From assembly GCA_030647205.1 (NCBI GenBank), contig JAUSJO010000002.1, positions 177,112 through 241,111 of the forward strand: DNA of 64,000 nucleotides, written 5' to 3'. This document shows positions 38,314 to 58,986 of the stretch, in pieces. A model generated the notes under the pieces. The model had not been told where the DNA came from and made no database searches. It was given only the letters and a program-made list of their open reading frames with translations. Numbering within the stretch: the first letter of the stretch is position 1; each line of letters begins with the position of its first letter. The position numbers and the translations under genes are program-made. The stretch is from a bacterium. Lineage in GTDB: Bacteria > Patescibacteriota > CPR2 > UBA1875 > JAJYID01.

Positions 38314-40074
38314 ATGAAAAATCTGAAGAAATTATATCAAATAATGAAACCTCTGAAATGGGTAATAATTTTACTCTCTTTTTTGGCTATTTTAGAGTCT
38401 GTTTTAGGCGTTGTTACGCCGCTGGTTTATAAAGTTATCGTAAATAATATTACGAATATTGTAAGCGGGGCATTAACGAAAGATGCCGGTATAAGGAACA
38501 TGATATATGTAACTATACTTTTACTTTTAATCTTCGCGGTCACGACTATTAGTTACATTCTAAAGAGTTATTATGGTCCAAAACTTGAAGTTCAGACACA
38601 AAGGCTGATAAGAGAAAGAATATTCAATCATCTTACCGAGCTATCAGTTGATTTCTATGAAAAAGAACGCGTCGGTTCTCTTATGAGTAAATTTAACAGG
38701 GGAATAAGCAGAGGCAGTTCCCTTATGAGTCAGATAGTGAACTGGCTGGCTTCTCAGTTGTTGACCGGTATTTTTTCTATGGTAATGATATTTGTTATTG
38801 ATTGGCAAGCGGGGCTTATAGTTCTTGGTTGCACATTTATATATCTATTTAACACTTCCAGATTAGTGAAGAAAGTTAACCCGTTACACAAAGCCATTAA
38901 CAAAAAATATGATAGTATAAGCGGTCAAATATTTGAAGTTGCCTCAGGGATACATACTGTTAAGTCCTTTGCCCAAGAAGACAATGAGACACTTTCGTTT
39001 GTCAAACGCAATAGCAGCTGGGTGGATATGAGCCTGGAAAGAGCTAAGAAAAGGGCTGTTTATGTTTTGGGACGCCACACGATTATTGATTTTGCGGGAG
39101 TGGTGATAATGGTTATGGCGGGGTTTAAGGCACTAAACGGTCAAATTACACCCGGAGACATTGTCCTCTACGTAACGTATATCAGGTATATAATTTGGCC
39201 GCTTAGCAACTTGACCTGGCTTTATGATGATGGCCAGGAAGCAATGCGTTCTATTGAGGACATCTTCGAATTTTTGGAAACGAAGCCAAGCGTACAAGAT
39301 ACTAAAAACGCAGAAAATATTGGAAAGGTCAGTGGAAACATTGAGTTTTCAAATGTTGGCTTTAGCTATCGTGAGCAGACAAAGGTTCTAGATAAGATAT
39401 CTTTTATCGCTAAACCCGGGGAATCTATCGCGCTGGTGGGTCCATCAGGAACAGGCAAGTCAACTATTGCCAAGCTTCTGATCCGATTTTATGATGCAAC
39501 CGAAGGAAAAATCCTTATAGATGGGAAGGATATCAGAAATATAACCCAAAAGTCTCTCAGGAAAAACATTGGTGTAGTCCAGCAGGAAGCTATGCTTTTT
39601 AACCAAAGCATAAAGAAAAATATTGGCTATGGAACCCCTAGTGCAAAAATTAAAGACATAGAAAGGGCAGCAAAGGCGGCAAACATTCATGATTTTATTA
39701 TGGGCTTGCCGGAAGGTTATAACACTTTGGTTGGTGAAAGAGGAATCAAACTTTCCGGAGGAGAAAAACAAAGGGTTGCTATCGCTCGCGCGCTACTCAA
39801 AAATCCGCCAATCCTTATTCTTGATGAAGCTACATCTCACCTTGACTCGAAGTCGGAACAGTTGGTGCAGGAAGCTATTTGGAGGCTTATAGAAGGCAGG
39901 ACGACGGTTATTATCGCTCATCGTCTAGCTACTGTTATGAAGGCGGACAAAATAATAGTGATCCAAAAGGGCAAGATTATTGAAGAAGACACCCACGAAG
40001 AGCTGGTTGCCGCGGGAGGACTTTATGAAGAACTATTTAAGATTCAGTCAGGGGCAATGCTCTCGGAGGATTAG
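38314..40074 (+). CDS. ABC exporter, fused TMD-NBD (ABCB/MsbA type)
   Basis: 6-TM N-terminal half; Walker A GPSGTGKST, signature [15 protein letters not shown], Walker B ILDEATSHLD. Confidence 0.85.
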   Translation: MKNLKKLYQIMKPLKWVIILLSFLAILESVLGVVTPLVYKVIVNNITNIVSGALTKDAGIRNMIYVTILLLLIFAVTTISYILKSYYGPKLEVQTQRLIRERIFNHLTELSVDFYEKERVGSLMSKFNRGISRGSSLMSQIVNWLASQLLTGIFSMVMIFVIDWQAGLIVLGCTFIYLFNTSRLVKKVNPLHKAINKKYDSISGQIFEVASGIHTVKSFAQEDNETLSFVKRNSSWVDMSLERAKKRAVYVLGRHTIIDFAGVVIMVMAGFKALNGQITPGDIVLYVTYIRYIIWPLSNLTWLYDDGQEAMRSIEDIFEFLETKPSVQDTKNAENIGKVSGNIEFSNVGFSYREQTKVLDKISFIAKPGESIALVGPSGTGKSTIAKLLIRFYDATEGKILIDGKDIRNITQKSLRKNIGVVQQEAMLFNQSIKKNIGYGTPSAKIKDIERAAKAANIHDFIMGLPEGYNTLVGERGIKLSGGEKQRVAIARALLKNPPILILDEATSHLDSKSEQLVQEAIWRLIEGRTTVIIAHRLATVMKADKIIVIQKGKIIEEDTHEELVAAGGLYEELFKIQSGAMLSED

Positions 40075-41561: not shown

Positions 41562-41660
41562 AGGCCTTTATTTTTAAAATTGTTTTAGTTGTCTCTACGA
41601 GTGTAGTATTTTACTTATTTGCCGGGGCGAAGAAAAATCCTTTTGTTAACAATAATGATT

Positions 41661-41690
41661 GACTTTTTTTAAAAAATGACTATAATTGTG
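41661..41690 (+). promoter_or_regulatory. Sigma70-like promoter TTGACT-N17-TATAAT upstream of ABC-F leader
   Basis: read directly. Confidence 0.5.
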
Positions 41691-41777: not shown

Positions 41778-43451
41778 ATGATAAAAATCAGCAACCTTTC
41801 AAAGTCATATGAAGTGGGGAAAGTCCTATCTCATGTAAACCTTGTCGTAAACGAGGGTGAAAAAGTCGGCTTAGTTGGTCCTAACGGAGTAGGTAAGTCA
41901 ACTTTGCTTAAACTTGTGGCTGGCAAGGAGCGTTCTGATGAGGGAAGTATCCAACTGGAGAAAAATGATAAAGTTGGGTATCTTGCTCAAGAAGTAAATC
42001 CTTCATCTCCATCTCAGACCGTACGAGATTTTCTCCTTTTTCCGTTTGCTGAGCTGATGAAGATAGAAGAAGAGATGAACGGACTTACGGAAAAGATCTC
42101 TGAGGCTGAAGGAGAAAAACAACAGAAACTGCTGTATGAGTATGGTGACCTTCAAGAAAAGTTCATGAAAGGTGATGGTTATGAGATTGAAACACGTCTC
42201 AAACAGATTGCCGAGGGACTTAGCTTGAAACCACTAATGGACTTAAAAATGTCTTCTCTTAGCGGTGGCCAGAAAGCAAGAGTATCAATAGGCCAAATGC
42301 TGATGGAAAATCCAACGATACTTTTGTTGGATGAGCCGACAAATCATCTTGATCTTCCTTCATTGTTATGGCTAGAAAGCTATATTATGAAAGATAATCG
42401 TCCACTAATAGTAGTGTCACATGACCGGCGTTTCTTGGATAAGACCGTATCTCGAGTAGTCGAGGTTGATCCGTTCAGTCATGAGGTTACTTCTTTTGGA
42501 GGAAACTACAGTGATTATCTGGAGGAAAAAAAGAGATTAAGAGAGAGGCAGTTGCAGAACTATGAGCAGCAGCAGAAGAGGTTCGATAAGCTCGATGAAG
42601 ACATCAAAAAAACGAAGGGTCAGGCACTAAGGACAGAAACGTCAACGAAGAATGACGTCTTACGGAGATATGCCAAGAAGGTTGCCAAGAAGGCGAAGTC
42701 AAGAGAGAACAGGCTACAAAAGATGAAAGAGTCTGAGGAAGCTATAGAGAAGCCGAGGGAGAAAGATAAACCAAAGCTGAAACTAAAAACTTCCGGTAAG
42801 GGCGGTAACCTGCTTGTGAAGCTTTCCGGTATATCGATAGCTTTCGGTAAAAAAGAACTGCTGAGAGATGTCGAAATATCTATAAGGTCCGGAGATCACA
42901 TAGCTATACTGGGCAGTAATGGTAGTGGTAAATCAACTCTTCTGAAGATACTTCTGGAAGAGATAAAGCCTAATGCCGGGATAGTAGAGAAAGGGAAAGA
43001 TGTCAGTGTTGGATACTTGCCCCAGGAATATGGCCATCTTCCTAAAGAGAAGAAAGCTCTGGAATGGTTCAGAAGCCAGGTCGTGATGCATGAAGATGAG
43101 GCAAGGTCCTTATTGGGCAGTTTATCTTTCTCTCAGGATGTTCTCTTTAGCCCGATAGGTAAACTTAGTCGAGGCGAAGTGGCGCGACTGCTTCTGGCAG
43201 TCTTGGTAGCCGGTGATTATGATCTTATCCTTCTGGATGAGCCTACTAATCATCTTGATCTCGACTCACTAAGTGCTATGGAGGAAGCTCTGACGAGCTA
43301 TAAAGGGTCAGTTGTGCTGGTTACTCACGACAGATACTTTCTTGACAAAGTAGGTATCGATGAAGTGCTAGCACTTGAAGATTGCCAACTCAAAAAGTTT
43401 TCCTCTTGGAAAGCCTATGAGAAGGCGGTAACTACTCAAGATCGGAGGTGA
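41778..43451 (+). CDS. ABC-F family ATPase (two NBDs, long inter-domain linker; translation-factor type)
   Basis: two Walker A (GPNGVGKST; GSNGSGKST), two signature motifs (LSGGQKARVSIG; LSRGEVARL), charged ~100-aa linker. Confidence 0.8.
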   Translation: MIKISNLSKSYEVGKVLSHVNLVVNEGEKVGLVGPNGVGKSTLLKLVAGKERSDEGSIQLEKNDKVGYLAQEVNPSSPSQTVRDFLLFPFAELMKIEEEMNGLTEKISEAEGEKQQKLLYEYGDLQEKFMKGDGYEIETRLKQIAEGLSLKPLMDLKMSSLSGGQKARVSIGQMLMENPTILLLDEPTNHLDLPSLLWLESYIMKDNRPLIVVSHDRRFLDKTVSRVVEVDPFSHEVTSFGGNYSDYLEEKKRLRERQLQNYEQQQKRFDKLDEDIKKTKGQALRTETSTKNDVLRRYAKKVAKKAKSRENRLQKMKESEEAIEKPREKDKPKLKLKTSGKGGNLLVKLSGISIAFGKKELLRDVEISIRSGDHIAILGSNGSGKSTLLKILLEEIKPNAGIVEKGKDVSVGYLPQEYGHLPKEKKALEWFRSQVVMHEDEARSLLGSLSFSQDVLFSPIGKLSRGEVARLLLAVLVAGDYDLILLDEPTNHLDLDSLSAMEEALTSYKGSVVLVTHDRYFLDKVGIDEVLALEDCQLKKFSSWKAYEKAVTTQDRR

Positions 43452-43639
43452 AAACTATGACACAAGAACCTGAGGTACAAACCCATCGCCTCTGTCACAT
43501 TGATCAGAACTGTTGCCCTGAGGTAGCAGTTGGTCGTGAGACGGTAAGTATCACCGATGATGATGGCGGGAGGGTGGAGCTGCCAGTGTCCGCTTGGAAC
43601 ATCCTGAAAGATAGGATTTCCAGCGGGGAAATCACGTAG
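43448..43639 (+). CDS. Small Cys-containing peptide (63 aa): candidate RiPP precursor or truncated PqqD-like RRE
   Basis: CHIDQNCCPE cluster; start overlaps ABC-F stop (ATGA); followed by strong terminator then rSAM gene. Confidence 0.4.
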   Translation: MKTMTQEPEVQTHRLCHIDQNCCPEVAVGRETVSITDDDGGRVELPVSAWNILKDRISSGEIT

Positions 43640-43656
43640 TTGTTTTACTAGATCGT

Positions 43657-43692
43657 ATGGGGGTGTACTTTGTACACCCCCTTCTTTTTTAG
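43657..43692 (+). terminator. Intrinsic terminator GGGGGTGTAC-TTT-GTACACCCCC + T-run between peptide gene and radical-SAM gene
   Basis: 10-bp perfect stem read directly. Confidence 0.7.
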
Positions 43693-43704
43693 AAGGAGGC
43701 ATTG

Positions 43705-44694
43705 ATGGTTGATTTACCTTTGTATGTATTGACGACCACAAGATGCAACTTTGTGTGTAGATACTGTTTTGAGGAAGGAATACCTCAGTCGGATATGCTA
43801 CCCACCATTAAGGACAAGATGATAAGTTTTATAGAAGGAATAGTCGTTAGTAAAGGTATATCGTCTATAAATCTTACGTTGTTTGGAGGGGAACCCTTGA
43901 TGACGGGGATGTCTCCCGAAGTTGCAAAAGACATAAAAGAAGTTGCAGTTTCAAGAAGTACTGACTACCATTTGAGCCTAATAACTAATGGCTATCTTCT
44001 TTCTCCAACCACTCTAGAGAAGTTAGTTGGCTTGGGGTTAGACAAAGTCATAGTGAGTATTGATGGTTCAGAGAAACAACACAACAGGAACAGACCGTTG
44101 AAAAATGGCGACCCGACTTTCGATATGATTGTCGACAATGTTGAAGCTGTTTTGCCTGTTGTACCAGTCGTTATCCGGGTGAATTATTATCCCGGCGAAA
44201 TTGCTGAGGTTATAAAGGGGCTTAAAAGAATAAAAGAGATGGGAGCTAACAGCGTATACTTTTCTCCGATACGCCCTTCTTCAGAAAAAAGTTGTGGAGA
44301 AGTGCCAGCAAGCAAGAACGATTTTGATGAACTGGTGATTCTTCATAAGAGTGCGAAAGAGATGGGGCTACTACCACATGACGATTATAGGTTCGGACCC
44401 TGTATGGCTCACCATCCTCATGCAATGGTCATAAATCCTTCCGGCGAGATATATAAATGTTTGTATGGCGTTGGAAGGTCATTTTGTCGGTCAGGAAGTA
44501 TCTTTGATGGTTATAAGCCAAATCAAAGAATAGTGCAAAAGGAGTATATGTCCGATAAGTGTCATTTGTGTGAACTGCTTCCCTTTTGTTTTGGAGGATG
44601 TAGATATGACGCTTATCAGAGTACAGGATCTTTCGAGGGTACCGTTTGCAAAAAGGGTGGTCTTGGAAGATTACGTAAGATCAAAAAAATGTAA
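43705..44694 (+). CDS. Radical SAM enzyme with C-terminal SPASM-type auxiliary Fe-S domain
   Basis: CNFVCRYC (CxxxCxxC) after RBS AGAAGGAGG; C-terminal Cys cluster C..C....C...C.LC...C.GGC. Confidence 0.75.
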   Translation: MVDLPLYVLTTTRCNFVCRYCFEEGIPQSDMLPTIKDKMISFIEGIVVSKGISSINLTLFGGEPLMTGMSPEVAKDIKEVAVSRSTDYHLSLITNGYLLSPTTLEKLVGLGLDKVIVSIDGSEKQHNRNRPLKNGDPTFDMIVDNVEAVLPVVPVVIRVNYYPGEIAEVIKGLKRIKEMGANSVYFSPIRPSSEKSCGEVPASKNDFDELVILHKSAKEMGLLPHDDYRFGPCMAHHPHAMVINPSGEIYKCLYGVGRSFCRSGSIFDGYKPNQRIVQKEYMSDKCHLCELLPFCFGGCRYDAYQSTGSFEGTVCKKGGLGRLRKIKKM

Positions 44695-44799
44695 CAAAAA
44701 GGCAGGCTTTTAAGCCATTTGCGGATTTGCCTTGGACTCTAGCAGTCTAAAACCGCTTTTTAACTTTTTATATTATTATTTTAAGAGTAAGATTTTATT

Positions 44800-45723
44800 A
44801 TGAACCGATTTATCGAAACATATCAAAGAAAGCCAGCGGATATACTAAATCTCATCAAACAAATATCTGGGAACCTTGATGTCAAAACTATTTCAGATTT
44901 TTGTGAAGCAGAATATCAGCTTTTTTCAATTTTCCAATATGAGAGGGATATTTTAGATGTCAGCGGGACTGGAGGCGCGGAATATGATACGGTGAATGTT
45001 GGGACTATCAGTGCTTTCATTCTGGCTTCTTTAGATATCCCTGTAGCTAAACTATCATTTCCCAGTTACTCTGGCTCTCTAGGAAGTGAAAATATACTAA
45101 AAAAATATGGTATTCCTATTAGAATCTCTCGAGAAGAAATATTTAAAGATTTAGACAAATTCAACTTATGTTTTTTGCAGCGTGAGTATAGTTTAGAAGG
45201 ACTGGAAAGAAACAAGAAAACAGCAGAAATAGCTAATATGATGCCTCGAAGGTCTATATTTAGGTTACTTGGCCCACTTTGCCATCCTTTAAAGCCGGAT
45301 TTTAGGGTTTATGGCCTTGCCAAAAACACTGAAGGCGAGGCTATAAGCTGCTATTTAAGGGAAAACACAAAAAGGTACATGGTTGTTTCTGGTAAAAGTG
45401 GCATAGACGAAGTAGATATTTGTGAGTCTACAGATATTTGGGAAAATGATGGATCATACAGCCTAGATGTAGAGACACTAGGCCTTAAAAAAGAATCCAT
45501 AAAAGACATACAGGTTGGTAATGTAAAGAGCGAAGAGTTATTTTTGAAAATCTTGAATAATCAAGTCGGGGGACCCTTAGCTGAGCTTGTTTTAATAAAT
45601 GTTGCGGCAGGTATCAAGGTGGTGAGGGGAACGGACTGGGAGAAGAGTTATAAAATAGCAGAAGACGAACTAAAGTCAGGAAGACCTTTTGAGATATTTA
45701 GGCAAATGAGCTTGTTACCATGA
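44800..45723 (+). CDS. TrpD-like / glycosyltransferase-family-3 fold protein, divergent (GTGGA instead of GTGGD)
   Basis: LDVSGTGGAEYDTVNVGTISAFILASLDIPVAKLS resembles anthranilate phosphoribosyltransferase PRPP-binding region. Confidence 0.4.
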   Translation: MNRFIETYQRKPADILNLIKQISGNLDVKTISDFCEAEYQLFSIFQYERDILDVSGTGGAEYDTVNVGTISAFILASLDIPVAKLSFPSYSGSLGSENILKKYGIPIRISREEIFKDLDKFNLCFLQREYSLEGLERNKKTAEIANMMPRRSIFRLLGPLCHPLKPDFRVYGLAKNTEGEAISCYLRENTKRYMVVSGKSGIDEVDICESTDIWENDGSYSLDVETLGLKKESIKDIQVGNVKSEELFLKILNNQVGGPLAELVLINVAAGIKVVRGTDWEKSYKIAEDELKSGRPFEIFRQMSLLP

Positions 45724-46166
45724 ACTCTGATTTGTTAAATATTCTGATAGAACAGCTGAAGGAAGATAAAAGTATTGTCTTGGTTGGTCCCACTGACTTG
45801 GGGAAGACACATTTTGTAGCTAGCCAGCTCTTACCTGCTCTAGGAAAAGCAGGCATAGATGCGCGGATGGTCAAAGATTGTGACGAGGACTTCAATATTC
45901 TTGAAGGAGTCGATATTGCTATCTTCGATGAGGTTGAGACGTTTATAGATAGAGAGTTTCTAGAGAAAAGACATCCGGAGGAAATACCGTATTATACGTC
46001 TATGTATGCTAAAAAAGTTCTGGGGTGGTTTGATAAGCTAGGAAAGGTAGAAATACCCGCTGTTTATATTATTACGAGAAACGAAAAAGAAGAGGTTGAA
46101 TATCTTGTAGAAAATATGCGCCTTACTGACTGGGGTCGAAAAGTAAAAACCCTATCTTTCCTGTAG
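45720..46166 (+). CDS. Small P-loop NTPase
   Basis: Walker A GPTDLGKT, Walker B IAIFDEVE; ATGA overlap with upstream gene. Confidence 0.45.
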   Translation: MNSDLLNILIEQLKEDKSIVLVGPTDLGKTHFVASQLLPALGKAGIDARMVKDCDEDFNILEGVDIAIFDEVETFIDREFLEKRHPEEIPYYTSMYAKKVLGWFDKLGKVEIPAVYIITRNEKEEVEYLVENMRLTDWGRKVKTLSFL

Positions 46167-46255: not shown

Positions 46256-46495
46256 TTATTTTTTAGTAGTTTCTGATACGGCTTGGCCGAGAGGAGTAAG
46301 TACGTAGCGGTCTACGGGCTTTTCCTCTATAATCTTCAGAAAGCCGAGCCTACCGAGCTTCAGGATACTCTTGTCTAGCTCTTCGCTTGCGCATTCTATG
46401 CCGCCACGAGCAAGCGATCTCTTCACTTCGGAGAATGTCTTTGGCTCCTGCGTCAGGGTGGCCAAGATCATTGTCCCGATCTTCTTCGTGCCCAT
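46256..46495 (-). CDS. Small winged-helix transcriptional regulator
   Basis: 79 aa, HTH-like segment TFSEVKRSLARGGIECASEELDKSILKLGRLGFL; GC-elevated. Confidence 0.4.
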   Translation of the reverse strand: MGTKKIGTMILATLTQEPKTFSEVKRSLARGGIECASEELDKSILKLGRLGFLKIIEEKPVDRYVLTPLGQAVSETTKK

Positions 46496-46932: not shown

Positions 46933-47562
46933 ATGAAACACGGTAACAAAATGTATAGCTTTAAGATCTGCGAAAACGAGGTTGAAAGGATAGCCTCACG
47001 AGAGCTCAGATTTGAGGTGTTTTGTGTGGAAAAGGGTTGGATAGACCCAAGTCAATTTCCAAACAGTCAGGAATTCGACGAATTCGATGATTATGCAAAG
47101 CACATCATTGCTCTAAATGAAAAAGGCGATGTTATCGGCACTGCCCGTGTGATAATGCCGTCCGCCGCAGGACTTCCGATAGAAAAACTGCTTTTGGAGG
47201 ATCAGCTTGATCCCAGTGAGACAGTGGAAGTTTCAAGGCTTGCAGTCCGCGAGGATGCTAGGGGCAACGAGTCAGTTGTGTTTTTCGGCGTAACACGACT
47301 GATGTGGAAGTACGTATCGACTCAGCCTATCAACTACTGGGCTGCATCTGTCGATGTACCTCTCTACAATCGTCTTGAGAGGCTGGGAATGCCATTTATT
47401 GAAGTGGCAGAACCAACATTCTACGTCGGATCGGAATCGGTGCCATTTGTGGCCGACTTTCACAAGACCGAAGATGTCCTCTTCGGTGCCTTTGTAAATC
47501 GCGTTATGTCAAGGATGGGAGGTGGTCAAGATGATACCTTACGAAGCGCTAACAGCGCGTAA
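46933..47562 (+). CDS. GNAT-fold N-acyl amino acid synthase / autoinducer-synthase-like acyltransferase
   Basis: ELRFEVFCVEKGW motif characteristic of LuxI-like/N-acyl amino acid synthase GNATs. Confidence 0.5.
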   Translation: MKHGNKMYSFKICENEVERIASRELRFEVFCVEKGWIDPSQFPNSQEFDEFDDYAKHIIALNEKGDVIGTARVIMPSAAGLPIEKLLLEDQLDPSETVEVSRLAVREDARGNESVVFFGVTRLMWKYVSTQPINYWAASVDVPLYNRLERLGMPFIEVAEPTFYVGSESVPFVADFHKTEDVLFGAFVNRVMSRMGGGQDDTLRSANSA

Positions 47563-48316
47563 TGCGGGTATTATCCAGGACCAGGAGTGCTTGAAAAGGG
47601 CCACAGTGGCGATAGCCGGCTGTGGCGGCGCTGGTGGTAAATCTCCAGCGACATTCGCAAGGATGGGGGTTGGCAAGATAAGGTTAGCCGACCCGGATAC
47701 ATTTGATGTCTCAAACCTTAACCGGCAATATGGATCCAGTGTCCGCACGTTGGGTCAAAACAAGGCCCAGGCCATCGCTGATCTGGTGAAGGATATCAAT
47801 CCACATTGCGAAGTTGAAGTCTTCGAGGAGGGTATCACCGAAGACAACATCGCTTCGTTTCTCCAAGGAGTAGATGTGGCCATAGAGGAGATTGATATCC
47901 AGGCCGCTTACTTCTCAGTGATTTTCCATCGTACTGCAAGGGCAATGGGAATCCCTGTCTTAACCGGCGTTGAAGTTGGTTGGGGCGCAAACCTCTTCTA
48001 CTTCGATCCCGAGGGGATGACCTTCGAGGAGTACGTTGGGATTCCTGACGGCGCAAGCAAGGAAGAGATCGAGAAGCATCCTATCCCGATCACTGCGTAT
48101 AGTCCGGAGATACCGGAGTATGTGACCGAGGATATTCTCGGCATGATCATGAGCGGCGAGATCGAAATACCGGCGATAGCGCCATCAGCGAACTTAACCG
48201 CAGCAATGATTGCGGTGTACACATACCTTCTGCTCAGTGGAGCCAAGAAGGTAGAACCGGTGCCTTACTACTATCCTGTCGACATATTTAATGTGGAGGC
48301 AAGAAGAGTAGTGTAG
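47522..48316 (+). CDS. ThiF/MoeB/E1-like adenylyltransferase
   Basis: Rossmann motif VAIAGCGGAGG and RLADPDTFDVSNLNRQ. Confidence 0.75.
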   Translation: MVKMIPYEALTARNAGIIQDQECLKRATVAIAGCGGAGGKSPATFARMGVGKIRLADPDTFDVSNLNRQYGSSVRTLGQNKAQAIADLVKDINPHCEVEVFEEGITEDNIASFLQGVDVAIEEIDIQAAYFSVIFHRTARAMGIPVLTGVEVGWGANLFYFDPEGMTFEEYVGIPDGASKEEIEKHPIPITAYSPEIPEYVTEDILGMIMSGEIEIPAIAPSANLTAAMIAVYTYLLLSGAKKVEPVPYYYPVDIFNVEARRVV

Positions 48317-48412
48317 CTTTATAACTTCAGAGTGTTACTCTGAAAATTGCCAACCCCGTGGGGTTGGCAATTTTCTTTTATATGAATTATACTTAATTAA
48401 AAGCGAGGGAAA

Positions 48413-57428: not shown

Positions 57429-57779
57429 TTAGCACCCTCCAGAGGAGGCTTGGGGAGTCTTGACAACGACGTGAGTGTAGTTTTTCAGAAGCTGTAACTT
57501 CTCCTTTTTCCTGCTCAGCTCCTCTAACATTTGCTTCTTTCGTTTTGTGTTCAGACTTTCATCTATCAGCTTGCGCATGCTTTGGGCTTCCTTGACCAGC
57601 CTGTTGTATTCCGTCTCTGCCTTTTCGACTAGTGCTCTGTATTCCTGCTCGCGAGGGTCCTCGGCGCCGATTTGTGACTCGAGACTCTGAATCTCTTTCT
57701 CGAGCTCGGCGATAGATGCCAGCCTTGTTTGTTCAAGATCTGCTTCGATCTCATTTGCTGGTGACTGTTTGTCTGCCAT
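57429..57779 (-). CDS. Small coiled-coil protein ending ...KTPQASSGGC, overlapping end of radical-SAM gene
   Basis: ORF; heptad-rich; C-terminal Gly-Gly-Cys. Confidence 0.4.
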   Translation of the reverse strand: MADKQSPANEIEADLEQTRLASIAELEKEIQSLESQIGAEDPREQEYRALVEKAETEYNRLVKEAQSMRKLIDESLNTKRKKQMLEELSRKKEKLQLLKNYTHVVVKTPQASSGGC

Positions 57780-58986
57780 TTTCCGTCTCCTTTGCTTTGG
57801 ACGCTTTTTGCAGATTTTGCTTTTTGTAGTTCACACATGGTTTTGCATCTTTTTCACCGAGCGCTCTTATTCCTCTAAAAAGCGGCGAATCCATGATTTC
57901 CATGATCGTCATGTCTCTGATATTGCCCGCAGAGATGTTAGAGAAAAGGCATGGTTCCACCGATCCGCTCGGAGTGATATGGAAGTGGCGATCCGCAGCA
58001 TCACAGACTCTAAGTTCGTCTATTGCTGCTCTGCCACACCGTACGTAAAGAGGATACTTATCCTTGACTACCTCTGACCACATTTCAAGGATCAGTTTTT
58101 GGTTTTTCGTAAGGATAAGATTCTCATTTGGGTTTGAGTCTGTGGGGATATACTGATTATAGACGATGCCATAAGCGCCCTTTTCTACGACCATATCGGT
58201 GAACTGACTGCTTACGATTTCATCAAAGTTTTCCCTCGTCACAGTTACAGTGACGCCGAAAACATGATTGACCGCACGTAAGTGCTCCATCGCTTCAATG
58301 GCTTTTTGGTATACTCCTTCACCTCGTCTGGCATCCGTTTTTTCTTCGAAGCCGTCTAGACTGACTGACATAAAGAGGTTACCGATTTTGGCGATTCTTT
58401 CCGCAGCCTTTCTGTCCAGCGTTGTTCCGTTAGTGAAGACGATGAAACATACATCGGGATGATTTTCGTATACTTCCCACATATCTTCACGAAGCAAGGG
58501 TTCACCGCCAAGGATACTGTAGATCACGGTGCCGTTTTGAGAGCCCTCAGTGATAGCTTTGTCTATCACTTCTGTTGGCAGGTCAATCTTGGGGAATCTC
58601 TCGGCGTAACAGTTGCTACAGGCGATATTGCACTTACCCGATATAGTTATCTCTATCTGTGAGGGCACATCCTTGCCATTGGCCCCGCAGACGAGCCGAT
58701 TGATAATCAAGTTTTTGGCAAAAGCCTGCCAGTAGGCTGGGTTTGATCTTGCCAATTTTCTGGCGAGATGGAGATAAGGATGATTTTTCGTGGCGAGTTT
58801 TTGCAACAACTCATCGAATTTGAAGAAGTAGTTCTTCTTTGATGTGAACGGCTTTGTGATTATGAGCATTGCCTTGGCAAAACCGTTTAGAACCGGATCC
58901 GGTGAAAGGAAAACGGCTCGCAGGAAGGATACATATAGCACATTTATAAACCATGAGTTAAGCAGATATTTCCTGAAGCCTTTCAA
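57751..58986 (-). CDS. Radical SAM enzyme with C-terminal Cys-rich (SPASM/twitch-like) domain and ~110-aa N-terminal extension
   Basis: GKCNIACSNCYAERF (CxxxCxxC); C-terminal C...C..C cluster PCLFSN...KPCVNY. Confidence 0.65.
   Translation of the reverse strand: MKGFRKYLLNSWFINVLYVSFLRAVFLSPDPVLNGFAKAMLIITKPFTSKKNYFFKFDELLQKLATKNHPYLHLARKLARSNPAYWQAFAKNLIINRLVCGANGKDVPSQIEITISGKCNIACSNCYAERFPKIDLPTEVIDKAITEGSQNGTVIYSILGGEPLLREDMWEVYENHPDVCFIVFTNGTTLDRKAAERIAKIGNLFMSVSLDGFEEKTDARRGEGVYQKAIEAMEHLRAVNHVFGVTVTVTRENFDEIVSSQFTDMVVEKGAYGIVYNQYIPTDSNPNENLILTKNQKLILEMWSEVVKDKYPLYVRCGRAAIDELRVCDAADRHFHITPSGSVEPCLFSNISAGNIRDMTIMEIMDSPLFRGIRALGEKDAKPCVNYKKQNLQKASKAKETENGRQTVTSK

What the first reader, a model, noticed from the sequence alone, without database searches (positions are those of the whole stretch)
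43448..46166. RiPP-like operon: Cys-containing small ORF, intrinsic terminator, radical SAM/SPASM enzyme, divergent TrpD-like protein and small P-loop NTPase, translationally coupled to an ABC-F gene
Small ORF: A 63-aa ORF (43448-43639; CHIDQNCCPE cluster; its start overlaps the ABC-F stop as ATGA) is followed by a 10-bp-stem terminator (43657-43692). Downstream of the terminator comes a radical SAM gene with CxxxCxxC and a C-terminal SPASM-type Cys cluster.

Downstream genes: Next, with 4-nt overlaps, come a TrpD/GT3-fold protein lacking the canonical GTGGD Asp (it has GTGGA), and a 148-aa P-loop NTPase.

Interpretation: A small-peptide gene separated by a leaky terminator from an rSAM-SPASM maturase is the classic organisation of RiPP or cofactor-peptide systems. 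The C-terminal half of the small ORF (ETVSITDDDGGRVELPVSAWNIL) also loosely resembles the N-terminal part of PqqD-type RRE domains, so it could be a recognition partner rather than the substrate.

Novelty: I do not recognise the combination with a TrpD-like fold and a P-loop protein.
Genome-neighbourhood comparison in other genomes for co-occurrence of these four genes.
Heterologous co-expression of the peptide with the rSAM and mass spectrometry for crosslinks or modification.
The rSAM showing best matches to a well-defined non-peptide-modifying family such as anaerobic sulfatase maturase with its cognate sulfatase nearby.
Basis: partly seen in the sequence, partly recalled or inferred. Interest (0 to 1): 0.65.

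Follow-up and report, generated by a model that had tools for sequence, protein, structure and literature searches.

The report
Cysteine mini-protein with radical SAM module
A 60-residue, three-cysteine protein gene lies between a ribosome-protection-type ATPase gene and a radical SAM enzyme gene, and because the same combination recurs in many uncultured bacteria it is probably an undescribed protein-modification module rather than a classic antibiotic-peptide operon.

Summary
The features are real, with corrections. The small gene most likely starts at ATG 43457 (60 aa), and 105 nt, not a 4-nt overlap, separate the rSAM and TrpD-like genes.

The small ORF is not an orphan. It belongs to a widespread family of ~55-65-aa proteins that no library holds: predicted β4-α fold, near-invariant LC…CCP…DDxGG.

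In 16 loci (11 lineages, GC 27-64%) this gene is followed directly by a SPASM radical SAM gene. An MTAP-like phosphorylase follows in all 13 loci long enough to show it. A ribosomal-protection-type ABC-F is adjacent in seven of the 16.

The window carries the same functional order (ABC-F, small protein, SPASM rSAM, glycosyl/phosphoribosyl-transferase), but with different enzymes. Its rSAM is short, lacks an RRE and belongs to another clade. A TrpD-like protein with an altered acceptor site replaces MTAP.

Best reading (about 0.45): the folded mini-protein is the rSAM's substrate, probably through Cys cross-linking.

It is not a leader-core RiPP precursor and not an RRE. The family also occurs without any rSAM, next to DUF1360 membrane proteins and in phages. 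The P-loop gene is lineage-specific.

Main rival: ABC-F plus small gene and rSAM plus TrpD-like are separate units.

The parts
41659..41686 (+). Sigma-70-like promoter candidate upstream of the ABC-F gene (TTGACT-16-TATAAT)
   Evidence: It matches 11 of 12 consensus positions. This is a consensus match only. No comparable site lies between 43450 and 43705.
41778..43451 (+). ABC-F ATPase of the ribosomal-protection-like type (557 aa)
   Evidence: - Two ABC_tran domains plus ABC_tran_Xtn.
- NCBIfam NF000355 scores 443 bits, above the cut-off of 380. EttA scores 350, below its cut-off of 599.
- Homologous ABC-F genes adjoin the small gene in L004, L008, L014, L038, L047, L062, L098 and L105.
43457..43639 (+). 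Small Cys3 protein, 60 aa (ORF open from GTG 43448). Member of an unnamed LC-x(4-6)-CCP ... DDxGG family.
   Evidence: - phmmer against 1.84 billion representatives finds about 20 full-length relatives of 52-66 aa.
- Scans with a degenerate DNA pattern returned 110 loci (22 genome, 76 metagenome, 12 viral).
- AF2 gives pLDDT 86 and a b-b-b-b-a fold.
- No Pfam, NCBIfam, PHROG, PADLOC or PDB relative.
43659..43691 (+). Intrinsic terminator between the small gene and the rSAM gene
   Evidence: It has a 10-bp stem, a 3-nt loop and a T-tract. Centroid energy is -22 kcal/mol, z = -3.8. The T-tract ends 14 nt before the rSAM ATG.
43705..44694 (+). Radical SAM / SPASM enzyme, 329 aa, with no N-terminal RRE domain
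   Evidence: - PF04055 at 1.6e-15.
- Best NCBIfam hits are peptide maturases, all below cut-off: geopeptide 165.7 (cut-off 400), TIGR04463, CefB, PapB. They align from profile position ~88 onward.
- CxxxCxxC and the 7-Cys SPASM motif are read directly.
- One close relative only: P0003/L002 at 86% identity.
44695..44799 (+). Spacer between the rSAM and TrpD-like genes, conserved in L002
   Evidence: It is 83-91% identical to the L002 spacer. It contains small hairpins and CCGC followed by T5. There is no Rfam match, and folding is no better than shuffles.
44800..45723 (+). TrpD-like (PF00591-only) glycosyl/phosphoribosyl-transferase paralogue, 307 aa
   Evidence: - PF00591 at 1.3e-36, with no PF02885 domain.
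- trpD TIGR01245 scores 159, below its cut-off of 199.
- Best PDB matches are all TrpD, E = 1e-22.
- GTGGD is changed to GTGGA, KHGN to KLSF and NLLGPLxNP to RLLGPLCHP. The N..T, K, R and DE positions are kept.
- It is paired with the rSAM gene in L002 and L119.
45720..46166 (+). 148-aa P-loop NTPase (Walker A GPTDLGKT, Walker B IAIFDE), lineage-specific
   Evidence: - No family reaches significance.
- It is absent from L002, where the TrpD-like gene is followed directly by the wHTH gene.
- The AF2 single-sequence model is unusable (pLDDT 48).
46256..46495 (-). 79-aa winged-helix-like protein, convergent. It is conserved next to the TrpD-like gene in L002.
   Evidence: It is 59% identical to L002 1875-2114 on the minus strand. 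Only weak HxlR/MarR-type hits are found. Its role as a regulator of the unit is inferred.

Best explanation
The window holds a divergent copy of a recurrent, undescribed gene module with four constant roles:
1. A ribosomal-protection-type ABC-F ATPase.
2. A ~60-aa folded protein with three near-invariant cysteines and a DDxGG turn.
3. A SPASM-type radical SAM enzyme encoded directly downstream.
4. An enzyme of N-glycosidic or ribosyl-phosphate chemistry after that.

Proposed mechanism:
- ABC-F and the small protein are made from one transcript, and their translation is closely coupled.
- A strong terminator lets only a fraction of transcripts continue into the enzyme genes.
- The rSAM/SPASM enzyme has no RRE and so probably recognises a folded protein rather than a leader peptide. 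It uses SAM-derived 5'-deoxyadenosyl radical chemistry on the mini-protein.
- The most probable reaction is an intramolecular Cys-based (thioether-type) cross-link between the Cys loop and the neighbouring acidic turn.
- The next enzyme is MTAP-like in the canonical module. Here it is a TrpD-fold protein that keeps the ribose-phosphate/Mg residues but not the anthranilate-site residues. It deals with the adenosyl side of the reaction, most simply by removing the inhibitory by-product 5'-deoxyadenosine.
- The ABC-F link suggests that the product acts on, or is handled at, the ribosome.

Shown here: gene order, motifs, family membership and conserved neighbourhoods. Inferred: substrate status, the chemistry, the role of the TrpD-like protein and the ribosome link. 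The P-loop gene is an accessory of this lineage only.
For: - Family: full-length relatives of 52-66 aa at 36-53% identity. The first Cys is 99% conserved and the preceding Leu 95% among 80 non-identical sequences, although neither was part of the search pattern.
- Fold: pLDDT 86. The Cys loop lies between strands 1 and 2 and the DDxGG turn between strands 3 and 4. In a strand meander these two loops would lie at the same end of the sheet. That placement is my inference; no coordinates were inspected.
- Module: small gene then rSAM/SPASM in 16 loci, forming 11 lineages at <70% rSAM identity, GC 27-64%, from Patescibacteria, Berkelbacteria, Pseudonocardiales and others.
- An MTAP-like gene follows the rSAM in all 13 loci long enough to show it, usually overlapping it.
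- ABC-F is adjacent in 7 loci in three different arrangements, all ribosomal-protection-like by NCBIfam.
- Class-A small proteins share a class-specific Cys loop, LCGVQGCCPT, across phyla.
- Window: the same functional order; no promoter-like site and only 14 nt between the terminator T-tract and the rSAM start.
- The rSAM's best matches are all Cys-directed or cross-linking peptide maturases, and its RRE region is absent.
- The TrpD-like protein keeps GTGG, N, T, K, R and DE but loses D83 and KHGN. No MTAP-like gene is found anywhere in the 64 kb.
- 5'-deoxyadenosine is a by-product and inhibitor of rSAM enzymes, and that study built an insertion mutant of MTA phosphorylase (MtnP) in its work on 5dAdo salvage (PMC8102628).
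Against: - The window's rSAM is not an orthologue of the class-A rSAMs. It is 21-28% identical to them (E 1e-6 to 1e-12), against 30% (E 1e-40) to geopeptide-maturase-like proteins that sit in ordinary RiPP contexts.
- The window's small protein has a different loop (CHIDQNCCPE). One of the two other proteins sharing this loop (P0178, locus L105) has the order ABC-F, small gene, terminator, then a methyltransferase-like gene, not an rSAM.
- The only related rSAM + TrpD-like loci (L002, L119) are cut upstream, so co-conservation with the small gene is untested.
- Most family members have no rSAM neighbour, so the unmodified protein must have a function of its own.
- The terminator is strong.
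- Class-A small and rSAM genes are mostly tightly spaced without terminators, unlike here.
- The 5'-deoxyadenosine role of a TrpD-fold enzyme has no precedent that I know of.
Confidence: 0.45

Rival explanations
1. There are two independent units that merely abut. ABC-F plus the small protein form one operon closed by the terminator. The rSAM + TrpD-like (+ P-loop) genes form a separate unit acting on another, unidentified substrate, either a peptide encoded elsewhere or a small molecule.
For: - A strong terminator follows the small gene.
- L105, L104 and L106 show the small gene followed by a terminator and then unrelated genes (methyltransferase-like, recombinase).
- The window rSAM lies outside the class-A rSAM family.
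- rSAM + TrpD-like travel together in L002 and L119.
- No close rSAM fragment matching the gene downstream of P0161 appeared in the rSAM homologue list.
Against: - The chance that an unrelated downstream neighbour is a SPASM peptide-maturase-like rSAM, followed by a ribosyl-transfer-type enzyme, is small. This is exactly the functional order of the module found in 11 other lineages.
- There is no promoter-like site, and no space for one, between the terminator and the rSAM gene.
- No other candidate substrate ORF lies next to the rSAM gene.
Confidence: 0.27
2. The small protein is a metal- or Fe-S-binding or thiol-redox partner, for example a dedicated electron donor or sulfur carrier for the rSAM enzyme. 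It is not the enzyme's substrate. The same general redox or metal role would explain its presence beside CxxC membrane proteins and in phages.
For: - Three near-invariant Cys plus two invariant Asp lie in two loops that a meander topology would place together; the placement is inferred.
- The family occurs in three unrelated contexts: rSAM, DUF1360-like CPFCxGFW membrane protein, and phage modules.
- Class-A genes are mostly tightly spaced with the rSAM gene, which fits roughly equal amounts of the two products.
Against: - Only three Cys are present, two of them vicinal, which is an unusual ligand set.
- There is no similarity to ferredoxin, rubredoxin or thioredoxin families in Pfam, or by sequence or fold search of the PDB.
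- The window's architecture (small gene, then terminator, then enzyme) favours an excess of the small protein over the enzyme.
Confidence: 0.13
3. This is a classical RiPP operon. The 60-aa product would be a leader-core precursor that is modified, cleaved and exported as an antibiotic, with ABC-F as self-resistance.
For: - The order small gene, leaky terminator, SPASM maturase.
- The nearest NCBIfam families are RiPP maturases.
- The ABC-F is of the ribosomal-protection type. The actinobacterial module copies score best against the producer-type TlrC/CarA/OleB/SrmB model, at 452-455 bits against a cut-off of 800.
- An ABC-B exporter gene lies 1.7 kb upstream at 38314-40074.
Against: - The protein is conserved along its whole length as a folded domain, with no variable core or conserved leader.
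- There is no RRE, no leader peptidase and no C39 domain on the exporter.
- The exporter is separated from the unit by an opposite-strand Nudix gene and a membrane-protein gene.
- Most family members, including phage copies, lack any maturase.
Confidence: 0.07
4. The small ORF is a stand-alone RRE (PqqD-like recognition element) that presents an unidentified peptide to the RRE-less rSAM enzyme.
For: The window rSAM lacks the N-terminal ~85 residues present in its 430-aa relatives.
Against: - No PqqD hit in any of 20 family members at E <= 1.
- The predicted fold is four strands plus one helix. From general knowledge, an RRE is a three-strand, three-helix winged helix.
- Class-A rSAMs keep their own N-terminal extension and still pair with the small protein.
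- No other peptide gene lies nearby.
Confidence: 0.03

Closest known systems
QhpC/QhpD (gamma subunit of quinohemoprotein amine dehydrogenase and its SPASM radical SAM maturase)
   Same: A small Cys-rich protein, rather than a short leader-core peptide, is the substrate of a SPASM rSAM enzyme, which makes intraprotein Cys-to-Asp/Glu thioether links (from general knowledge). The class-A rSAMs score 70-107 bits against the QhpD model. Here too the conserved residues are Cys plus Asp.
   Different: - All scores are far below the QhpD cut-off: 62.8 bits for the window rSAM and up to 106.8 for class A, against 453.
- No QhpA/B dehydrogenase genes are nearby.
- The small protein has no sequence relation to any curated family.
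- ABC-F and phosphorylase partners are not part of the Qhp system.
Ranthipeptide/sactipeptide-type RiPP systems (PapB, SCIFF/ScfB, CefB, 'geopeptide' maturase)
   Same: These are the best-scoring families for the window rSAM: geopeptide 165.7, TIGR04463 134, CefB 129 and PapB 116 bits. They are Cys-directed SPASM enzymes encoded next to a small Cys-containing gene.
   Different: - Every score is below the family cut-off.
- The window enzyme lacks the RRE region.
- The candidate substrate is a conserved folded domain that also exists without any maturase.
- No protease or exporter lies in the operon.
Radical SAM enzymes paired with a purine-nucleoside-phosphorylase-family enzyme
   Same: An rSAM gene is followed by an NP-I family (MTAP-like) gene in all 13 informative class-A loci. 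Two precedents exist. One is 5'-deoxyadenosine clearance by MTA phosphorylase (PMC8102628). The other is removal of adenine from adenosylated rSAM products, as in HpnH/HpnG and MqnE/MqnB (from general knowledge).
   Different: - In the window the slot is filled by a TrpD-fold protein, a different fold class, with no known activity on adenosine derivatives.
- No hopanoid or futalosine genes are present.
- The MTAP-like proteins score just below the equivalog cut-offs, 221-241 bits against 275.
ARE-type ABC-F ribosomal protection proteins in antibiotic gene clusters (OleB, CarA, SrmB, TlrC type)
   Same: The window ABC-F and the module-associated ABC-Fs tested reach or come close to (375.6-467 bits) the NF000355 'ribosomal protection-like' cut-off of 380. 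The actinobacterial ones score best against the producer-type model. They are encoded next to biosynthesis-like genes.
   Different: - They fall below the cut-offs of every specific resistance family.
- No antibiotic is known.
- In a small genome this could equally be the housekeeping translation ABC-F.
Anthranilate phosphoribosyltransferase TrpD
   Same: It has the PF00591 fold, all PDB matches are TrpD (E = 1e-22), and GTGG, Asn, Thr, Lys, Arg and the Asp-Glu metal site are kept.
   Different: - It scores below the trpD equivalog cut-off, 159 against 199.
- GTGGD is changed to GTGGA (GTGGT in L002), KHGN to KLSF, and the NLLGPLxNP Asn residues are changed.
- No PF02885 N-terminal domain is detected.
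- No trp genes flank it; the window's other genes were only partly annotated.

Membership tests
RiPP biosynthetic operon (leader-core precursor + maturase) | Short precursor gene adjacent to the maturase gene on the same strand | tested here: met
   The 60-aa gene ends 65 nt before the rSAM start.
RiPP biosynthetic operon (leader-core precursor + maturase) | Bipartite precursor, with a recognisable leader and core that differ in conservation | tested here: not met
   Conservation is spread over residues 11-50 as strand/turn/helix periodicity, and the fold is confidently predicted.
RiPP biosynthetic operon (leader-core precursor + maturase) | RRE (PqqD-like) domain fused to the maturase or encoded separately | tested here: not met
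   The rSAM aligns to maturase profiles only from position ~88. No PqqD hit is found in the small protein family.
RiPP biosynthetic operon (leader-core precursor + maturase) | Leader peptidase and/or dedicated exporter in the cluster | tested here: not met
   None lies between 41778 and 46495. The ABC-B exporter at 38314-40074 lacks a peptidase domain. An opposite-strand gene separates it from the unit.
RiPP biosynthetic operon (leader-core precursor + maturase) | Co-occurrence of the precursor family with the maturase family across genomes | tested here: inconclusive
   This is met for the small family with class-A rSAMs (16 loci). It is untestable for the window's own rSAM clade, because L002 and L119 are cut upstream.
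SPASM-domain radical SAM enzymes | CxxxCxxC SAM-cluster motif | tested here: met
   CNFVCRYC lies at residues 14-21. PF04055 hits at 1.6e-15.
SPASM-domain radical SAM enzymes | Seven-Cys C-terminal motif for two auxiliary clusters | tested here: met
   C-x13-G-x4-C ... CHLCELLPFCFGGC ... C is read from the translation. Full-length alignment to SPASM maturases supports it. The Pfam PF13186 model itself gave no hit at E <= 1.
Geopeptide radical SAM maturase (TIGR04280) / PapB family (NF047865) | Score at or above the curated cut-off | tested here: not met
   165.7 bits against 400, and 115.8 against 340.
Anthranilate phosphoribosyltransferase TrpD | Equivalog score; GTGGD and KHGN motifs; N-terminal helical domain PF02885 | tested here: not met
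   159 bits against a cut-off of 199. The motifs read GTGGA and KLSF. Only PF00591 is detected. The metal-site DE and the K, N, T and R positions are retained.
Ribosomal-protection-like ABC-F (NF000355) | Score at or above the curated cut-off; two ABC domains with an inter-domain linker | tested here: met
   443 bits against 380. Two ABC_tran domains plus ABC_tran_Xtn.
PqqD/RRE (as an identity for the small ORF) | PF05402-type sequence match and a three-strand, three-helix fold | tested here: not met
   No hit in 20 members. The predicted fold is b4-a1.
DUF397 (PF04149; my own recalled resemblance) | Pfam match at the gathering threshold | tested here: not met
   Only 2 of 20 members hit, with a best E of 0.029. 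The window protein gives no hit.
Canonical 'small Cys3 protein - rSAM/SPASM - MTAP-like (+ABC-F)' module defined here | Small protein belongs to the family | tested here: met
   E = 3e-26 against the family HMM. That HMM was built from alignment A2, which includes the window protein, so the score is partly circular. Independent support comes from reciprocal phmmer hits. All near-invariant residues are present except T41 (Pro here) and Q/E44 (Ala here).
Canonical 'small Cys3 protein - rSAM/SPASM - MTAP-like (+ABC-F)' module defined here | rSAM is an orthologue of the class-A rSAMs (434-470 aa, FibroRumin-like best hit) | tested here: not met
   It is 21-28% identical to them, 329 aa long, and its best NCBIfam hits differ.
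Canonical 'small Cys3 protein - rSAM/SPASM - MTAP-like (+ABC-F)' module defined here | MTAP-like phosphorylase directly after the rSAM gene | tested here: not met
   No MTAP-like ORF is found anywhere in the window. A TrpD-like gene occupies the position.
Canonical 'small Cys3 protein - rSAM/SPASM - MTAP-like (+ABC-F)' module defined here | Ribosomal-protection-like ABC-F adjacent | tested here: met
   It lies directly upstream with a 5-nt spacer.
Known anti-phage defence systems (PADLOC), including viperin | Match to a defence-system protein model beyond the generic domain | tested here: not met
   Only generic rSAM similarity to pVip (56 bits) and generic ABC/AAA hits are found. Nothing hits the small, TrpD-like or wHTH proteins.

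The most novel reading that the evidence does not exclude
The module makes a ribosome-directed, radical-SAM-modified mini-protein. In this reading the rSAM does more than cross-link the Cys loop: it adds the 5'-deoxyadenosyl moiety to the protein. The phosphorylase-type enzyme (MTAP-like, or TrpD-like here) then removes adenine and leaves a ribosyl-type adduct, as HpnH/HpnG do on hopanoids. The ARE-like ABC-F protects or services the producer's own ribosomes. That would be a new class of protein modification, and a new ribosome-targeting effector, in candidate-phyla and actinobacterial genomes.
Probability: 0.08. Interest if true: 0.9.

Novelty: new variant of a known kind. Interest (0 to 1): 0.6.

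Why it matters
- SPASM radical SAM enzymes are a major source of new peptide and protein chemistry, yet most have no known substrate. This work links a widespread, uncurated family of ~60-aa Cys3 proteins to such enzymes. The family was found in 110 loci from bacteria, metagenomes and phages.
- It defines a compact three- or four-gene module that can be tested directly by co-expression and mass spectrometry.
- The constant company of a nucleoside-phosphorylase-type enzyme and a ribosomal-protection-type ABC-F is unusual for rSAM systems. It points either to dedicated by-product clearance or to adenosyl-derived chemistry, and to a link with translation.
- The window is the informative outlier. 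Both enzymes are replaced by non-orthologous analogues while the functional order is kept. That argues the roles, not the particular proteins, are what selection keeps together.
- Much of the spread is in Patescibacteria-type genomes, where hardly any secondary or protein-modification chemistry has been characterised.

Tried and rejected
- Word-indexed homologue search for the small ORF found only itself. The exhaustive phmmer search was needed.
- The search for related loci with the TrpD-like protein in metagenomes found nothing.
My first hand-typed DNA pattern was one base off and missed the window. It was rebuilt by script.
- L002's upstream part proved to be an assembly chimera, and L119 is only 1.3 kb. 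The relative's upstream genes could therefore not be seen.
- The P0161 contig has no DNA on file.
- A PDB sequence-profile search gave only chance CCP matches to properdin.
- My own recalled resemblance to DUF397/BldB was not confirmed.
- A defence-system reading was rejected, and no PHROG family holds the small protein.
- The P-loop protein has no family or PDB relative (TsaE at E 0.43 is not significant). Its single-sequence AF2 model has pLDDT 48, so no fold search was run.
- A riboswitch or RNA element in the two spacers was rejected: no Rfam hit, and the 105-nt spacer folds no better than shuffles.
- Literature searches for ABC-F + SPASM, rSAM + MTAP + RiPP, and the motif strings found no description of the module.
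- The nearest 30%-identical rSAM homologues sit in ordinary RiPP-like contexts without the small family.
- The second rSAM/SPASM gene in the window (57751-58986) is unrelated to this unit.

Full report
**1. What is in the sequence**

The region lies in a chromosomal stretch of an uncultured bacterium. RNase P RNA and tRNAs are present, GC is 40.7%, and NCBI names the source only 'MAG: bacterium' on a 428-kb contig. On the plus strand the region reads as follows.

- ABC-F gene, 41778-43451.
- Small ORF, open from GTG 43448.
- Hairpin plus T-tract, 43659-43691.
- Radical SAM gene, 43702/43705-44694.
- A 105-nt spacer.
- PF00591 (TrpD-like) gene, 44800-45723.
- 148-aa P-loop gene, 45720-46166, overlapping the TrpD-like stop by ATGA.
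- A convergent 79-aa winged-helix-like gene, 46256-46495, on the minus strand.

- The overlap with the ABC-F stop is GTGA. The better start is ATG 43457, with GGAGG ending 8 nt upstream. It gives the 60-aa product that NCBI also calls.
- The rSAM and TrpD-like genes are 105 nt apart and do not overlap.

The terminator is real: 10-bp stem, 7 G-C pairs, centroid energy -22 kcal/mol, z = -3.8.

The rSAM has CNFVCRYC and a complete seven-Cys SPASM pattern, read directly from the translation. The Pfam SPASM model itself does not fire.

**2. The small ORF is a member of a real, widespread, uncurated family**

The word-indexed search found only the protein itself. An exhaustive phmmer search of 1.84 billion representatives found about twenty full-length relatives of 52-66 aa at 36-53% identity.

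I derived a degenerate DNA pattern from the alignment and verified it on the window. It returned 22 loci from reference genomes, 76 from metagenomes and 12 from viral contigs. The genomes include Patescibacteria, Berkelbacteria, Gottesmanbacteria, Saccharibacteria, Pseudonocardiales, Desulfosporosinus/Peptococcaceae, Dehalococcoidia and Chloroflexia.

The pattern forces CCP, DD and one Gly, so their invariance in this set is by construction. However, they are also invariant or nearly so in the pattern-free phmmer set. Positions the pattern did not require are also strongly conserved: the first Cys 99%, the Leu before it 95%, and Gln/Glu at position 44 98%.

AlphaFold2 with the family alignment gives a confident model (pLDDT 86).

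- Strand 1, residues 8-11.
- Cys loop, residues 12-21.
- Strands 2 and 3.
- The DDDGG turn.
- Strand 4.
- A C-terminal helix, residues 44-56.

In a strand meander the Cys loop and the DDxGG turn would lie at the same end of the sheet. This is my inference, since no coordinates were inspected. If correct, the conserved residues form one site.

No Pfam, NCBIfam, PHROG or PADLOC model covers the family, and no PDB sequence or fold relative was found.

**3. Genomic contexts of the family**

*Class A: 16 loci, forming 11 lineages at <70% rSAM identity, GC 27-64%.*

- The small gene is followed directly by a 434-470-aa rSAM/SPASM gene. Its best NCBIfam hit is the FibroRumin maturase, below cut-off. 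PapB, QhpD and anSME are among the next hits.
- An MTAP-like phosphorylase follows the rSAM in all 13 loci that extend far enough, usually overlapping it. It scores 221-241 bits on TIGR01694 against a cut-off of 275.
- An ABC-F gene is adjacent in seven of these loci, in three different arrangements. It is upstream on the same strand in L038 and L062, divergent in L008, L014, L047 and L098, and downstream in L004.
- Five of the six ABC-Fs tested, including the window's, pass the NCBIfam 'ribosomal protection-like' cut-off of 380 (385-467 bits). L014's falls just short at 375.6 bits.
- The actinobacterial ABC-Fs score best against the producer-type TlrC/CarA/OleB/SrmB model.
- Class-A small proteins share a class-specific Cys loop, LCGVQGCCPT, across phyla.

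*Class B: 33 loci.* The small gene is overlapped by a ~102-aa membrane protein with a CPFCxGFW motif. It is a marginal DUF1360 match, 21.1 bits against a cut-off of 21.

*Class C: 49 loci.* Contexts vary. Many are phage, next to portal and Neck1-type genes, which fits the 12 IMG/VR hits.

The domain therefore exists, and presumably functions, without any rSAM in most places. A specific, tight association with SPASM rSAM enzymes has arisen in one large class.

**4. Where the window fits**

The window has the same order of functional categories as class A: ABC-F, small protein, SPASM rSAM, then an enzyme of ribosyl or N-glycosidic chemistry. The parts differ.

*The rSAM*

- It is 329 aa and lacks the first ~85 residues (the RRE region) of its relatives.
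- It is only 21-28% identical to class-A rSAMs, which are 26-100% identical to one another, median 35%.
- Its nearest relatives, apart from one 86%-identical fragment, are ~30%-identical 430-aa geopeptide-maturase-like proteins. Two that I inspected sit in ordinary RiPP-like contexts.

*The third gene*

- It is a PF00591-only TrpD paralogue, not an MTAP-like gene.
- All PDB hits are TrpD (1e-22), but it scores below the trpD cut-off, 159 against 199.
- In the alignment with genuine TrpDs it keeps GTGG, the Asn and Thr of the PRPP loop, the Lys, an Arg, and the Asp-Glu metal site.
- It has GTGGA for GTGGD, KLSF for KHGN and RLLGPLCHP for NLLGPLTNP. The ribose-phosphate side is kept and the anthranilate side is not. 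Residue roles are from general knowledge of S. solfataricus TrpD.
- No MTAP-like ORF exists anywhere in the 64 kb.

*The small protein*

- Its Cys loop is one residue longer than in class A (CHIDQNCCPE). Two proteins share this loop: P0161 and P0178.
- In L105 (P0178) the order is ABC-F, small gene, terminator, then a methyltransferase-like gene.
- The P0161 contig has a gene of more than 512 aa, then the small gene, then a cut gene, with no DNA available.

*The related loci*

- The only loci related to the window's enzyme pair are L002 and L119. They keep rSAM (86% identity), the spacer (83-91%), TrpD-like (67%) and the convergent wHTH gene (59%).
- They lack the P-loop gene, and both are cut or chimeric upstream.

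**5. Interpretation**

The family-level neighbourhoods support this.

The local architecture supports it too. The T-tract ends 14 nt before the rSAM start codon, those 14 nt hold the Shine-Dalgarno sequence, and no promoter-like site lies between 43450 and 43705. The rSAM gene can therefore only be reached by read-through.

The small protein is not a leader-core precursor. It is conserved as a folded domain, it has no RRE, protease or exporter partner in the operon, and most relatives have no maturase. It is not an RRE either.

The closest functional analogy is a small Cys-rich protein substrate such as QhpC with QhpD. Cys-to-acidic-residue thioether formation, as by PapB, is a second analogy.

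An rSAM without an RRE fits recognition of a folded protein. The conserved Cys loop and Asp-Asp turn are the obvious reaction site.

A phosphorylase-type gene accompanies the rSAM in all 13 informative class-A loci. This can be explained by removal of 5'-deoxyadenosine, the inhibitory by-product of rSAM enzymes (PMC8102628). Less conservatively, it could process an adenosylated intermediate, as HpnG and MqnB do. That the window places a TrpD-fold enzyme with an intact ribose-phosphate site in that slot suggests an analogous replacement. This step is inference only.

The ABC-F link suggests a connection to the ribosome, as immunity, handling or target. Nothing here tests that.

**6. Rivals**

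- *Two abutting units.* The strongest rival is that the window holds ABC-F plus the small gene, closed by the terminator as in L105, next to a separate rSAM plus TrpD-like unit. Non-orthology of the rSAM and the L105 context favour it. Against it, a SPASM maturase-like gene followed by a ribosyl-transfer-type gene is unlikely to land by chance exactly where the canonical module has them. I put it at about 0.27, against about 0.45 for the substrate reading.
- *Redox or metal partner.* About 0.13. It would unify the three contexts of the family, but it has no positive support beyond the Cys/Asp site.
- *Classical exported RiPP.* About 0.07.
- *Stand-alone RRE.* About 0.03.

**7. Novelty and limits**

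I found no description of the small family, or of the module with rSAM, MTAP-like and ABC-F genes, in four HMM libraries or in the searchable literature. The kind of system, a SPASM rSAM acting on a small Cys protein, is known. The partner set, and the window's double replacement of enzymes, are new variants.

All functional statements rest on gene neighbourhood, motifs and a predicted fold. The fixed-spacing DNA pattern under-samples the family and fixes some columns. Gene calls in the fetched loci are from a crude longest-ORF caller, so stated overlaps are upper bounds. The key test, whether the window's own rSAM + TrpD-like lineage always carries the small gene, could not be made.

Noticed in passing
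window 46933-48375: A GNAT/FeeM-like N-acyltransferase (TIGR03694, 84 bits, below its cut-off of 112) overlaps a ThiF-like E1 adenylyltransferase (PRK08223, 195 bits, below 266) by 41 nt. A very strong terminator with a 15-bp stem follows at 48342-48375. The pair is absent from the related locus L002.
   Followed up: partly
window 57429-58986 (minus strand): A second, unrelated rSAM/SPASM gene (411 aa, with an N-terminal extension; PF13186 at 38 bits) is overlapped at its 3' end by a 116-aa coiled-coil ORF ending ...ASSGGC. This could be another enzyme-substrate pair.
   Followed up: partly
window 45720-46166 versus L002 1809-1875: The P-loop gene is a clean presence/absence difference between the window and its only relative. 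In L002 the TrpD-like stop is followed directly by the convergent wHTH gene.
   Followed up: yes
window 44695-44799; L002 777-876: The rSAM/TrpD-like spacer is 83-91% identical between the two loci. That is about as conserved as the rSAM coding sequence and much more than the TrpD-like coding sequence (53-87%). It has small hairpins and CCGC followed by T5, no Rfam match, and folds no better than shuffles.
   Followed up: partly
L002 1-170: The left end of this ENA contig is an assembly chimera. It translates to the adapter-type artefact peptide ...RRRHTR...GVQTCALPIY, which truncates the rSAM gene.
   Followed up: yes
L003, L009, L010, L013, L015, L017, L020-L023 and about 20 metagenome loci: In Desulfosporosinus/Peptococcaceae and others the small Cys3 gene is translationally coupled to a ~102-aa DUF1360-like membrane protein with a CPFCQGFWCG motif. 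This is a second conserved partnership of the family.
   Followed up: partly
L094, L092, L061, L074, L076 and L107-L118 (IMG/VR): Members of the small family lie in phage contigs next to portal (PF06381) and Neck1/tail-completion (phrog_5) genes.
   Followed up: partly
L058 9547-10335; L081 2776-3570: L058 lacks an ABC-F within several kb on either side. L081 lacks one downstream, and its upstream side is cut. Both share a 262-264-aa nucleotidyltransferase-fold gene right after the MTAP-like gene, with only weak MntA/ANT(9)-type hits.
   Followed up: partly
L042, L044, L049, L064-L066, L097, L099: Freshwater class-B loci carry an AAA_28 P-loop gene upstream of the small gene and a type-I phosphoribosyltransferase (PF00156) downstream. 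This loosely parallels the window's P-loop and TrpD-like genes and may be coincidental.
   Followed up: no
L012 6073-6318: The small-family gene of a Chloroflexia MAG has an in-frame stop (…VLI*DDFGG…). It could be a pseudogene, a sequencing error or recoding.
   Followed up: no
L004 2510-3487: The Patescibacteria class-A locus carries a second, short (325 aa) RRE-less rSAM/SPASM gene, convergent with the ABC-F gene.
   Followed up: partly
window 44800-45723: The TrpD-like protein matches a phage protein family of unknown function (phrog_15632, 98.6 bits, E = 8e-28).
   Followed up: no
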